Shown: one piece after another, positions 33,001 through 36,000 of the stretch | Layout: every line of letters begins with the position of its first letter | Position numbering within the stretch: the first letter of the stretch is position 1 | Origin: a virus | Lineage: Duplodnaviria > Heunggongvirae > Uroviricota > Caudoviricetes | Length of the DNA: 64,000 nt | Reading direction: 5' to 3' (one strand) | Virus record (IMG/VR): IMGVR_UViG_2718218449_000002 | Program-made: the position numbers

Positions 33001-36000
33001 ATCGATCATGAAATTGATCATAAAACCGATCATGAAATCGATCATGACATCTCAGATGAAGAACCCTGCAATGACGCGGGTTCCGGCGATGAAAAATGCG
33101 CAAAAAACTCTGAAAAAAACTGCGCAAATTCGGCAGAAACGAAACGGATTCGTGGTTCCCGACTTTTACCACCTTCAAACGCTTTTTCTCAGCGAAACAC
33201 CCACGCCGTAAGACACCGTGGATATGCGAAGTATCTTGAGGCAGATAACCTCATGGATGATGCGTCCGACATGGTGCTGTTCGATGAACTGGTGTTCACC
33301 CGGGCCCGCGCACTTTCAGTAACTAAGGCACTTAAAGGGATGTTCGCCGACCTGGAAGAGGCAACTGACGTGGAAACCCGTGTTGCTCTTTACGACAAAA
33401 TACTCAAAGCTGAACAGGCCCTTGACCGGAATATTGCCCGTATCGAGTCAATTGAACGCTCATTGCTGACGCTGGACGTCCTGGCTGAGACAGCACCAAA
33501 ACTTCGTGCTGACCGGGAAAGAATCAACGCCGCCAGAGATAAACTCAGAGCTGAAACCGATATTCTGACCAGCCAGCGTCGGGGCGTTGTTACGCCTGTC
33601 AGTGACATCGTGTCATCGCTGCATGAAATGAGTAATTCGGGGAGACTGGATGACATTCCGGAAGAATGAACCGCGATGTGATGAGCCGTCAGAAATGACC
33701 GAGGCTGAACAACGTCTGTTCATCATGACTAAACTGAGCAATCCCTGGTGGCGGCTCAATCATCTCTACAAAATACAGAACGAAAAAGGTGAACTGGTCA
33801 CCTTCAGAATGCGACCGGCGCAGCGCCAGTTGTTCCGGAGCATGCACAATAAAAATATTATCCTGAAAGCGCGCCAGCTGGGATTTTCCACAGCCATTGA
33901 TATTTATCTTCTCGACCAGGCATTATTCATTCCGCATCTCAAATGCGGGATCGTCGCTCAGGATAAACAGGCTGCCAGTGAAATTTTCCGCACAAAAATT
34001 GCTGTACCGTTTGATCATCTCCCTGACTGGCTGAGAGCCTCATTCACCATCGTTGAACGTCGTAGCGGTGCCAGCGGTGGCTATATCCTGTTTGGTCACG
34101 GCTCGAGTATCCAGGTGGCAACCTCATTCCGTTCAGGTACGGTGCAGCGCCTGCATATCTCAGAGCACGGCAAAATTTGCGCGAAATATCCGGCTAAGGC
34201 GAAAGAACTGCGAACCGGTACGCTTAATGCCGTCTCTGATGAATGCATTATTTTTGATGAGTCCACTGCTGAAGGCGTGGGTGGTGATTTTTACGAGATG
34301 AGTAACCGAGCACAGGAGATCACTGCATCAGGCTTATTGCTGACGGCACAGGATTATAAATTCCATTTTTACGCCTGGTGGCAGGATCCTAAATACAGCG
34401 CCAGAGTGCCGGAAAGCGGGCTGAAGCTGTCACGGGAAAAAATGACGTATTTTTCTGCGGTTGAGAAGGCAATGAACATCACGCTTACTGATGAACAGAA
34501 GCAGTGGTACATCAATAAGGAAACTGAACAGCGTGAGGAAATGAAGCAGGAGTTTCCCTCAACGCCACAGGAGGCGTTTCTGACGTCCGGACGACGTGTG
34601 TTCAGTGCCGAAAGTACGTTGCAGGCAGAATCATTCTGTTCGCCACCGATGATTGTTTATGACATTGAACCTGTTACAGGAGCGAAGACTAAAGCTCAGT
34701 CTCTGCGTGAAGGAAATAAAAACGAGTTGCAGCGGACGCTGATGAATTATCTGCTGGTATGGGAACTGCCGGATCCGGATGAAGAGTATGTTTGTGGGGC
34801 AGATACTGCCGAAGGGCTGGAGCACGGAGACCGCTCATCGCTGGATGTTGTCAAACGCAGTAATGGCGAGCAGGTGGCTCACTGGTTCGGGCATCTCGAT
34901 GCTGAACTTTTTGCTCATCTCATTTCGCAGGTCTGTCGTATGTATAACAACGCGTTTGTGGGGCCGGAGCGTAATAATCACGGACATGCAGTTATCCTGA
35001 AACTCCGGGAACTCTATCCGACACGTTATATCTACAACGAACAGCATCTTGACCAGGCATATGACGACGATACGCCCCGCCTTGGCTGGCTGACAACCCG
35101 TCAGAGCAAACCTGTTCTGACCGAAGGAATGAAAACGCTTCTGAATAATGGAATATCAGGGATCCGCTGGTCAGGCACATTATCGGAAATGAACACCTAC
35201 GTTTATGACGCGAAAGGCTCCATGAATGCACAGGAAGGCTGCTTTGATGATCAGCTCATGAGCTACATGATTGCCCAGGAGATGCGCGCCAGAATGCCGG
35301 TGAGGGTAAAACAGAAAACGGATAAACGCAGAACCACACACTGGATGGCTCACTGATGAAAAATGAAACTAACACCATGGCGACGAAAAACGACAATGGA
35401 GCCACGCCGCGTTTTTCTCAGCGCCAGTTACAGGCGCTTTGTTCTGATATTGACAGCCAGCCTAAATGGCGTGATGCCGCAAACAAGGCCTGTGCGTATT
35501 ACGATGGCGATCAGTTGCCACCGGAAGTTCTTCAGGTACTGAAAGATCGCGGTCAGCCGATGACTATCCATAACCTCATCGCGCCTACCGTCGATGGCGT
35601 TCTGGGAATGGAGGCCAAAACACGGACTGATCTGGTGGTGATGTCAGACGAGCCAGATGATGAAACTGAAAAACTGGCTGAAGCTATTAATGCTGAATTT
35701 GCCGATGCATGCCGCCTTGGCAATATGAATAAAGCCCGCTCTGATGCCTATGCGGAACAAATCAAGGCGGGCCTCAGTTGGGTGGAGGTCAGACGAAACA
35801 GCGATCCGTTCGGGCCTGAATTTAAGGTGTCTACTGTCAGCCGGAATGAGGTTTTCTGGGACTGGCTGAGCCGGGAGGCTGATTTAAGTGACTGCCGATG
35901 GCTGATGCGTCGCCGCTGGATGGATACCGATGAGGCAAAAGCTACATTCCCGGGAATGGCTCAGGTTATCGATTATGCCATTGATGACTGGCGTGGTTTT

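What the first reader, a model, noticed from the sequence alone, without database searches (positions are those of the whole stretch)
33001..33048. Four phased GATC-containing 12-bp repeats inside the small terminase gene: candidate pac site
The repeats place four GATC sites at exact 12-bp spacing within the terS coding region, encoding an (IDHE/K) repeat. pac sites often lie within terS genes, and the P1 pac site is known to depend on methylation of clustered GATC-containing hexamers. The prophage also encodes its own MT-A70 adenine methylase (324..950).
Basis: partly seen in the sequence, partly recalled or inferred. Interest (0 to 1): 0.5.

Follow-up and report, generated by a model that had tools for sequence, protein, structure and literature searches.

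The report
Likely packaging site of Shiga-toxin phage
Four evenly spaced GATC-containing 12-base repeats inside the small-terminase gene of a 933W-type Shiga-toxin phage are very probably where that protein recognises phage DNA to start packaging, because both the protein's DNA-binding domain and the repeats resemble the proven packaging site of phage P1.

Summary
Four in-phase 12-bp units (32998-33045, RAAAYYGATCAT) place GATC at 33004, 33016, 33028 and 33040 in terS (32863-33669) of a 933W/phiPA8-type Stx phage.

Comparative evidence supports the pac-site reading.
- The units lie in DNA that encodes a disordered linker, directly after a three-helix HTH domain.
- In E. coli and Salmonella relatives the DNA consensus RAAANYGATCAN is kept while the peptide changes.
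- Relatives with recognition helix ARRY carry TGCGCA boxes at the same place, in all three reading frames, and on two unrelated TerS scaffolds. Relatives with helix ART[RQ] carry YGATCA.
- Phages that are otherwise near-identical differ only in this "helix + boxes" cassette.
- The HTH is homologous to the N-terminus of P1 PacA. The proven P1 pac hexamers (TGATCA/G) sit at the equivalent position in pacA.

- Methylation dependence is untested.
- The MT-A70 gene (324-950, minus strand) is reported to encode a 16S rRNA methyltransferase, and it is disrupted in the viable phage phiPA2.

Copy number varies among isolates (1, 2, 3, 4, 5 or 7 units). I found no published mapping of the site. It is a new member of a known kind.

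The parts
32998..33045 (+). Array of four in-phase 12-bp boxes (RAAAYYGATCAT), each with a Dam site. GATC starts at 33004, 33016, 33028 and 33040. Candidate TerS-binding part of pac. Encodes TerS residues K46-H61.
32863..33669 (+). terS, the small terminase gene (268 aa). N-terminal HTH domain, disordered linker, then a helical-hairpin oligomerisation core.
32863..32997 (+). Coding region of the N-terminal three-helix HTH-like domain (aa 1-45; helices 6-20, 24-31, 35-41). Homologous to the N-terminus of P1 PacA.
32965..32985 (+). Codons of helix 3 (Y35-R41, YNTARTR), the putative recognition helix. Residues 36, 40 and 41 differ between the GATCA-box and TGCGCA-box classes.
32917..33090 (+). 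Approximate extent of the divergent specificity cassette (helix 2-3, box array and start of the acidic linker). The flanks are 100% identical to a TGCGCA-class E. coli prophage (L046).
   Evidence: protein-level version
33097..33103 (+). TGCGCAA box 1 of a downstream pair. This is the box type of the sister class. It may be a vestige or a second half-site.
33121..33127 (+). TGCGCAA box 2 of the downstream pair, 24 bp after box 1.
33650..35356 (+). terL, the large terminase (568 aa). Presumed nuclease/ATPase that cuts near the TerS-bound array.
35356..37500 (+). P22-type portal gene (context for a headful packaging module).
324..950 (-). MT-A70 family methyltransferase (gp5 / M.EcoPA8orf6770P homologue).

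Best explanation
The four 12-bp boxes are the recognition element of the phage's pac site, embedded in terS itself.

Proposed mechanism:
1. TerS has an N-terminal three-helix HTH domain (aa 1-45), a roughly 70-residue disordered linker, and a helical-hairpin oligomerisation core.
2. Several HTH domains of one TerS oligomer bind the tandem boxes RAAANYGATCAN. The 12-bp spacing is about one helical turn.
3. This nucleoprotein complex recruits TerL, which makes the first cut nearby. In P1 the cut lies about 45-50 bp 3' of the left hexamer cluster.
4. Headful packaging then proceeds from that cut.

The boxes sit in the part of the gene where the protein sequence is least constrained. The recognition helix and the boxes form one portable specificity cassette.

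Shown here: the anatomy, the DNA-level conservation, the helix/box co-variation, the cassette mosaicism, and the homology to P1 PacA and its pac.

Inferred: TerS binding, the cut position, and any role of Dam methylation. Every box carries a Dam site in its core, so methylation state could gate recognition or cleavage as in P1.
For: 1. Position. AlphaFold2 gives helices 6-20, 24-31 and 35-41 (pLDDT about 85), a disordered stretch over residues 46-122, and a hairpin at 127-238. The array encodes residues 46-61. The first box starts at about nt 131-142 of the gene in every related family.

2. DNA is conserved, not the peptide. In 24 units from 6 distinct arrays of E. coli and Salmonella, positions 2, 4 and 7-11 are invariant and position 3 is A in 23 of 24. 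This set includes the third codon positions 3 and 9. The second codon position 5 takes all four bases, giving I, T, S or N. Position 12 switches His and Gln.

3. Co-variation. An unbiased 6-mer enrichment of the linker DNA gives TGCGCA (5-8 copies against 0.15 or fewer expected) in every gene with helix ARR[YH][IL]K, from E. coli, Citrobacter, Serratia and Aeromonas. It gives GATCA-type words in every gene with helix ART[RQ]IK that had a word repeated at least three times. The two Salmonella genes with only three boxes gave no such word there; their GATCA boxes were read directly. TGCGCA occurs in all three reading frames. Pectobacterium (helix AKRYITIK) has TTCGCA x5 in two frames. Unrelated HTHs have GTACGCA x6 or TCCGTC boxes.

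4. Same cassette on another scaffold. The ARRYIK HTH plus TGCGCA boxes is fused to an unrelated TerS core in phage PHB10, Klebsiella phage Kpn_R1 and about 60 IMG/VR variants.

5. Mosaicism. The window and prophage L046 are identical upstream and through codon ~17, and again from about 33190. They diverge across helix 2-3 plus the boxes. In both E. coli and Salmonella, the two classes share 80-89% identity outside aa 36-80 but only 32-38% inside. The identical upstream region therefore cannot carry the class-specific site.

6. P1. The PacA N-terminus aligns with this HTH (hhalign probability 93.7%, E=1.8e-7; BLASTP E=0.009; reciprocal PHROG cross-hits). The annotated P1 pac cleavage and IHF sites are flanked by TGATCA x4 and TGATC(G/A) x3, starting 194 nt into pacA and encoding IDH/NDQ/GDH. 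Synonymous recoding of those hexamers lowers P1 titre about 9-fold (PMC10028697).

7. 933W transduces host markers, and its DNA appears terminally redundant (PMC3752737).
Against: No virion-end, binding or mutational data exist for this phage family in what I could search.

PhageTerm on a 933W-like phage gave an uninformative 'Mu-like' call (PMC7946995).

All class-T boxes are in one reading frame and form a perfect tandem array, so slippage plus common ancestry could explain part of the pattern. The GATCA class probably arose once, so the R-to-T helix/box correlation is effectively one or two events.

P1 PacA has an ARRY-type helix yet uses TGATCA, so the simple residue-40 code fails.

Variants with 1, 2 or 3 units exist, and their viability is unknown.

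For SPP1/SF6, the direct repeats in pac turned out not to drive binding by the isolated DBD (PMC4737164).

The window keeps two TGCGCAA boxes of the other class downstream.
Confidence: 0.65

Rival explanations
1. The array is only a slippage-prone coding repeat in a disordered TerS linker. It expands and contracts neutrally, or tunes linker length. The GATC is an accident of Asp-His codons (GAT-CAT), and there is no DNA-level function.
For: It is a perfect in-frame tandem array. Copy number is polymorphic among E. coli isolates (1, 2, 3, 4, 5 or 7 units) with identical flanks. The encoded residues are predicted to be disordered. About 5% of random 12-mer units would contain GATC (my estimate).
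Against: Third codon positions are invariant or nearly so (one exception in 24 units), while a second codon position takes all four bases, across E. coli and Salmonella arrays. Sister classes keep their box in three reading frames and at irregular spacing, which slippage cannot produce. The box type tracks the recognition helix. P1 has the same hexamers at the same place, with proven function.
Confidence: 0.15
2. The functional recognition boxes of this phage are the family-wide TGCGCAA boxes (33097, 33121), alone or as the essential half of a bipartite site. The GATC array would be an accessory or regulatory addition.
For: TGCGCA is by far the most widespread box in the family. The pair is conserved in E. 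coli genes of both classes. A left cluster and a right cluster about 100-120 bp apart resemble the HEX4/HEX3 layout of P1.
Against: Salmonella genes with the same ART helix have lost these boxes (TGCTCA, TGCGCG or none). One E. coli variant has one box mutated (L038). The downstream segment is shared with TGCGCA-class phages by recent recombination, so its presence may be a hitch-hiking vestige. The helix change accompanies the change in the first array, not the second.
Confidence: 0.12
3. The cluster is a Dam/SeqA-type epigenetic element, for example a SeqA sequestration site or a methylation-sensitive regulator site acting on late-gene expression or replication. It would be unrelated to TerS binding.
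For: Four GATC sites at about one-turn spacing fit what I recall of SeqA's preference for closely spaced hemimethylated sites (my knowledge, not tested). GATC is otherwise depleted in the phage.
Against: This does not explain why sister phages have non-GATC boxes at the same place, why box type tracks the TerS helix, or the P1 parallel. The site lies inside a late-operon ORF with no obvious regulatory target.
Confidence: 0.05

Closest known systems
Bacteriophage P1 pac site with PacA/PacB pacase
   Same: Repeated hexamers with a GATC core (P1 TGATCA/G; here YGATCA). They lie inside the small-terminase gene immediately after the HTH-coding part and encode D-H/D-Q dipeptides. The N-terminal HTH is homologous (hhalign probability 93.7%). 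Each box is a Dam site.
   Different: P1 has two clusters (4+3, irregular spacing of 7-15 bp) flanking an IHF site and the cut. Here there is one strictly 12-bp-phased cluster, no IHF consensus within 32600-33500, and a downstream pair of a different box type. The rest of TerS, and TerL versus PacB, are not detectably similar. Methylation dependence is shown for P1 only.
TGCGCA-box terS genes of sister prophages (E. coli, Citrobacter, Serratia, Aeromonas) and PHB10-like phages, undescribed as far as I could find
   Same: Same TerS family or same HTH, with an array at the same gene position. In the E. coli members the unit is a 12-bp AAAARTGCGCAR, which differs from the window's unit essentially in the central two bases of a palindromic hexamer.
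   Different: The core is TGCGCA, with no Dam site. The helix is ARRY instead of ART[RQ]. Boxes are often irregularly spaced and occur in several reading frames.
SPP1/SF6 pacL-pacR direct repeats and the G1P small terminase
   Same: A ring of N-terminal HTH domains with neighbours about one DNA turn apart, and direct repeats in a pac region that overlaps the start of the terS gene (PMC4737164).
   Different: There the isolated DBD showed little specificity for the repeats, and recognition was attributed to DNA bendability. No sequence homology to this TerS was found.
P22 / Sf6 pac sites within the small-terminase gene
   Same: Headful phages with a P22-type portal whose pac lies inside terS (my knowledge; portal family).
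   Different: The P22 pac is a single site of about 22 bp (my knowledge), not a phased repeat array. TerS belongs to a different family (no Pfam or PDB match).

Membership tests
P1-type pac site | Multiple hexamers TGATC(A/G), each containing a Dam GATC site | tested here: met
   Four YGATCA boxes (one TGATCA, three CGATCA) at 32998-33045. P1 hexamers read directly from NC_005856.
P1-type pac site | Boxes lie inside the small-terminase gene just 3' of the HTH-coding segment | tested here: met
   Array at nt 136-183 of terS, after the HTH (aa 1-45). In P1 the first hexamer is at nt 194 of pacA.
P1-type pac site | Small terminase DNA-binding domain homologous to the PacA N-terminus | tested here: met
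   hhalign probability 93.7%, E=1.8e-7 over 39 columns. BLASTP E=0.009. Reciprocal PHROG 370/1711 hits at E=3e-5 and 2e-4. The similarity is limited to the first ~100 residues.
P1-type pac site | Two hexamer clusters (4+3) flanking the cleavage site, with an IHF site between them | tested here: not met
   Only one GATC cluster. The nearest other GATC sites are at 32776 and 33949. No WATCAANNNNTTR match in 32600-33500. The downstream pair is TGCGCAA, not GATC.
P1-type pac site | Cleavage requires adenine methylation of the hexamers | not testable with these tools
   Needs dam mutants or in vitro cleavage. For P1 it is stated in PMC10028697.
P1-type pac site | Large subunit homologous to PacB | tested here: not met
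   BLASTP of TerL against PacB, best E=3.7.
pac site of a headful-packaging phage (generic) | The phage packages by the headful mechanism | tested here: met
   933W performs generalized transduction, and its virion DNA was judged terminally redundant (PMC3752737). P22-type portal. terS is 99.8% identical to that of 933W.
pac site of a headful-packaging phage (generic) | The first packaging cut / virion DNA ends map at or near the site | not testable with these tools
   No read data. Record starts examined are arbitrary: an XhoI site at window 34102 for AP004402, and terL-start reorientation for phi315.
pac site of a headful-packaging phage (generic) | Specifically bound by the cognate small terminase | tested here: inconclusive
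   Only indirect evidence: helix/box co-variation and cassette mosaicism.
Neutral coding tandem repeat (low-complexity linker) | Copy-number polymorphism by slippage | tested here: met
   1, 2, 3, 4, 5 and 7 units among E. coli sequences.
Neutral coding tandem repeat (low-complexity linker) | Variation follows protein-level or neutral expectations (third codon positions freest) | tested here: not met
   Third positions 3 and 9 are invariant or nearly so (one exception in 24 units), while second position 5 takes all four bases. Sister boxes are used in three frames.

The most novel reading that the evidence does not exclude
Small terminases of several otherwise unrelated families (933W-like, PHB10-like, P1 PacA) share a portable packaging-specificity cassette. 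It consists of a short HTH domain plus, encoded in the disordered linker immediately behind it, the array of boxes that this HTH recognises. A single recombination can therefore re-target a phage's packaging. In the 933W/Salmonella version the box core became a Dam site (TGCGCA to TGATCA), so that packaging initiation is gated by the methylation or replication state of the DNA, as in P1.
Probability: 0.3. Interest if true: 0.65.

Novelty: new member of a known kind. Interest (0 to 1): 0.5.

Why it matters
933W-type phages spread Shiga-toxin genes and can transduce host DNA, yet I found no mapped pac site for them.

A precise 48-bp candidate makes several experiments immediately possible:
- recoding the boxes;
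- pac-plasmid transduction assays;
- re-analysis of virion reads.

It could help predict which chromosomal regions are mobilised from the prophage by in-situ (lateral) packaging.

The helix/box classes (TGCGCA, YGATCA, TTCGCA, GTACGCA) offer a natural series for studying how a ring of weak HTH domains achieves sequence specificity, and for engineering packaging specificity.

The link to P1 PacA ties a poorly characterised terminase family to one with biochemical data.

Tried and rejected
- Literature. I found no paper that maps pac or the virion ends of 933W-like phages. PhageTerm on Lys19259Vzw returned 'Mu-like', which is not informative. Plunkett 1999, Murphy 2008 (dam and 933W) and Lobocka 2004 are not held. 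I therefore could not check phage yield in dam mutants.
- Record start points as a proxy for ends. AP004402 starts at an XhoI site (window 34102), and phi315 is re-oriented to the terL start. Neither is an experimentally determined end.
- Family databases. Pfam and NCBIfam have no model for TerS or TerL. A PDB sequence search gave nothing.
- Fold search. Foldseek with the full model returned only generic coiled coils. With the HTH alone, all hits had E>0.5, although most were HTH DNA-binding proteins. I treat this as weak support only.
- IHF site as in P1: none found.
- Phage methylase as part of the mechanism: rejected as support.
- TerL-PacB homology: none.
- A simple 'Arg40 reads CG, Thr40 reads AT' code: contradicted by P1, which has an ARRY helix with TGATCA boxes.
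Full report
**What is there.** The window carries a 933W/phiPA8-type Shiga-toxin phage. ORF 32863-33669 (+) is 100% identical at the DNA level to the annotated small-terminase gene of Stx2 phage 86, VT2phi_272 and PA2, and 99.8% identical to 933W L0112. It matches PHROG 370 'terminase small subunit' at E=4e-125. It is followed by terL (33650-35356) and a P22-type portal gene (35356-37500).

Inside it, Tandem Repeats Finder reports a period-12 array (32999-51, 4.4 copies). Read in frame, the four units are AAA ATC GAT CAT / GAA ATT GAT CAT / AAA ACC GAT CAT / GAA ATC GAT CAT (32998-33045), encoding K-IDH-E-IDH-K-TDH-E-IDH. GATC starts at 33004, 33016, 33028 and 33040.

GATC is depleted in the window as a whole (166 against 258+-15 expected), and this is the only 4-in-40-bp cluster. 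Simulations rarely produce such a cluster (19 of 400) or equal spacing (1 of 400). But four copies of one duplicated unit are not four independent events, so the window alone proves little.

**Where it sits in the protein.** AlphaFold2 on a 32-sequence alignment gives three regions:
- an N-terminal three-helix bundle (helices 6-20, 24-31, 35-41; pLDDT about 85);
- a disordered stretch (46-122, pLDDT below 50);
- a long helical hairpin (127-238).

Foldseek hits for the isolated N-domain are not significant (E>0.5), but they are mostly HTH DNA-binding domains. The P1 homologue scores sub-threshold on Pfam HTH_23 and HTH_28. The repeat therefore encodes the first 16 residues of a disordered linker, right behind a putative HTH whose third helix is Y35-NTARTR-41.

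**The DNA is conserved, not the peptide.** Homologues were collected from GTDB genomes, IMG/VR, the protein database and GenBank phages. Salmonella prophages with about 60% identical TerS and helix NTARTQIK have 3-5 units at the same gene position (GATCA at nt 142, 154, 166...). Their peptides differ (SDQK, SDHK, NDHE, NDHN).

Across 24 units from 6 distinct arrays:
- positions 2, 4 and 7-11 are invariant and position 3 is A in 23 of 24 units; positions 3 and 9 are third codon positions;
- the second codon position 5 takes all four bases;
- position 12 toggles His and Gln.

The consensus is RAAANYGATCAN. This is the reverse of what selection on a protein produces.

**Sister classes and co-variation.** Every homologue whose helix reads ARR[YH][IL]K has the palindromic hexamer TGCGCA (usually TGCGCAA) 5-8 times on the coding strand at the same place. 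These come from E. coli, Citrobacter, Serratia and Aeromonas. The expectation is 0.15 copies or fewer, and the hexamer is almost absent from the rest of each roughly 6.8-kb locus. It occurs in all three reading frames (A-Q, V-R-K, C-A) and at irregular spacing, which slippage cannot explain.

In the closest E. coli relatives the unit is a 12-bp AAAARTGCGCAR. It is homologous to the window's unit and differs essentially in the two central bases of the hexamer (TGCGCA against TGATCA).

Other classes follow the same rule:
- Pectobacterium (helix AKRYITIK) has TTCGCA x5 in two frames.
- A Klebsiella phage with an unrelated HTH has GTACGCA x6.
- A Salmonella variant with another HTH has TCCGTC/GACGGA boxes.

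The ARRYIK HTH with TGCGCA boxes is also found fused to a completely different TerS core. This occurs in phage PHB10, Klebsiella phage Kpn_R1 and about 60 distinct IMG/VR variants, all with ARRYIK and TGCGCA.

**A swappable cassette.** A DNA alignment of the window with E. coli prophage L046 (TGCGCA class) shows three segments:
- 100% identity from at least 160 bp upstream of terS through codon ~17;
- sharp divergence across helix 2-3, the boxes and the start of the acidic linker (about 32917-33090);
- near-identity again from about 33190.

At the protein level, the two classes share 80-89% identity in aa 1-35 and 82-89% after aa 80, but only 32-38% in aa 36-80. This holds in both the E. coli and the Salmonella backgrounds. 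The class-specific recognition site therefore cannot lie in the shared upstream region, and helix plus boxes are inherited together.

**The P1 connection.** I read the P1 genome (NC_005856). PacA begins [43 protein letters not shown]. This aligns with the N-domain studied here:
- hhalign probability 93.7%, E=1.8e-7;
- BLASTP E=0.009;
- reciprocal PHROG cross-hits.

Directly after it come the hexamers TGATCA x4 (nt 194-233 of pacA). Then come the annotated IHF site and the pac cleavage sites, and then TGATCG/TGATCA/TGATCA (nt 324-352). They encode M-I-I-D-H-S-N-D-Q-H-A-G-D-H, the same GAT-CAx trick.

These hexamers are the accepted P1 pac elements with Dam sites. Recoding them synonymously lowers P1 titre about 9-fold (PMC10028697). 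The remainder of TerS, and TerL against PacB, are not similar.

**Headful packaging.** 933W performs generalized transduction with co-transduction limits that match its genome size. Its sequencers judged the virion DNA terminally redundant (PMC3752737). A pac site is therefore expected. I found none reported.

**What is not supported.** The MT-A70 ORF (324-950) is on the minus strand. The mutagenic primer published for gp5/M.EcoPA8orf6770P matches it. That study reports three things (PMC10810198):
- no GATC-specific DNA methylation in vitro;
- 16S rRNA methylation together with PNB-2;
- a viable phage (phiPA2) in which the gene is disrupted by IS629.

The same study notes that the homologue M.EcoGV methylates GATC in vivo when over-produced. 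Host Dam would methylate the boxes in any case. Whether methylation matters for recognition or cleavage is open.

P1's bipartite layout and IHF site are not reproduced. Instead, two TGCGCAA boxes of the sister class lie at 33097 and 33121. They are shared with TGCGCA-class E. coli phages, but they are degenerate or absent in the Salmonella GATCA class. They may be a recombination vestige or a second half-site.

**Caveats.**
- The GATCA class probably arose once, so the helix/box switch amounts to one or two events.
- P1 combines an ARRY-type helix with TGATCA, so residue 40 alone does not set specificity.
- For SPP1/SF6, the direct repeats in pac did not drive binding by the isolated DBD (PMC4737164).
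- Unit number varies in E. coli: 1 (L098), 2 (P0016), 3 (several Stx2a prophages), 4 (the large majority), 5 (L041, P0025) and 7 (L097). Flanks are otherwise identical. It is unknown whether the short variants still package.

**Verdict.** The array is most likely the TerS-recognition part of the pac site of 933W-type phages (confidence about 0.65). It is a new member of the P1-like kind of pac site, embedded in a portable 'HTH + boxes' specificity cassette. Dam gating is plausible but untested (about 0.3). The neutral-repeat reading is unlikely (about 0.15).

Noticed in passing
window 33097-33103 and 33121-33127: Two TGCGCAA boxes 24 bp apart, in reading frame 0 (C-A-K / C-A-N), downstream of the GATC array. 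This is the box type of the sister TerS class. The whole 64-kb window has only 12 copies on both strands.
   Followed up: yes
whole window: GATC is markedly under-represented: 166 observed against 258+-15 expected from dinucleotide-preserving shuffles.
   Followed up: no
L100 (LC727869.1) about 1678; also hits H75-H78: An IS629-type end (TGAACCGCCCCGGGTTTCCTGG...) is inserted 6 bp after a 3-unit array and truncates terS. Four other Stx2a prophage records (five in all) break at the same TerS residue 55, which suggests a shared or recurrent insertion right next to the repeats.
   Followed up: partly
L097 1637-1720; L098 3137-3148; L041; hits H66-H70: The 12-bp unit varies in number among E. coli isolates (7, 1, 5 and 3 units respectively), with identical flanks. 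Four units is by far the commonest.
   Followed up: yes
L102 (Klebsiella phage Kpn_R1), L103 (E. coli phage PHB10), L104-L183: The same N-terminal HTH (helix ATARRYIK) followed by 3-8 TGCGCA boxes is fused to an unrelated small-terminase core. The HTH and boxes appear to move as a module between terminase families.
   Followed up: yes
L101 (Klebsiella phage ST16-OXA48phi5.2) nt 130-245 of its terS; L094 nt 147-210: Small terminases with other N-terminal HTH types carry their own box arrays at the same place: GTACGCA x6, and TCCGTC direct plus GACGGA inverted, partly with a 12-bp period.
   Followed up: partly
window 324-950 (minus strand), with 947-1378 and 1434-2111 upstream on the same strand: The MT-A70 methyltransferase is intact here and equals gp5 of phiPA8. 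The two ORFs upstream of it lie where that paper places PNB-2 (gp6) and PNB-1 (gp7). I did not compare their sequences.
   Followed up: partly
window 43622-43712: Tandem repeats of period 9 and 45 (GCAGGCCCACAGGGACCAAAAGGAGAAACAGGT...) that look like a collagen-type Gly-X-Y stretch in a structural gene.
   Followed up: no
window 32455-32862: A roughly 400-bp stretch between bor and terS has only a doubtful 81-aa ORF (32562-32807). From 32700 onwards it is identical in phages of both box classes, so it is unlikely to hold the class-specific recognition site.
   Followed up: partly
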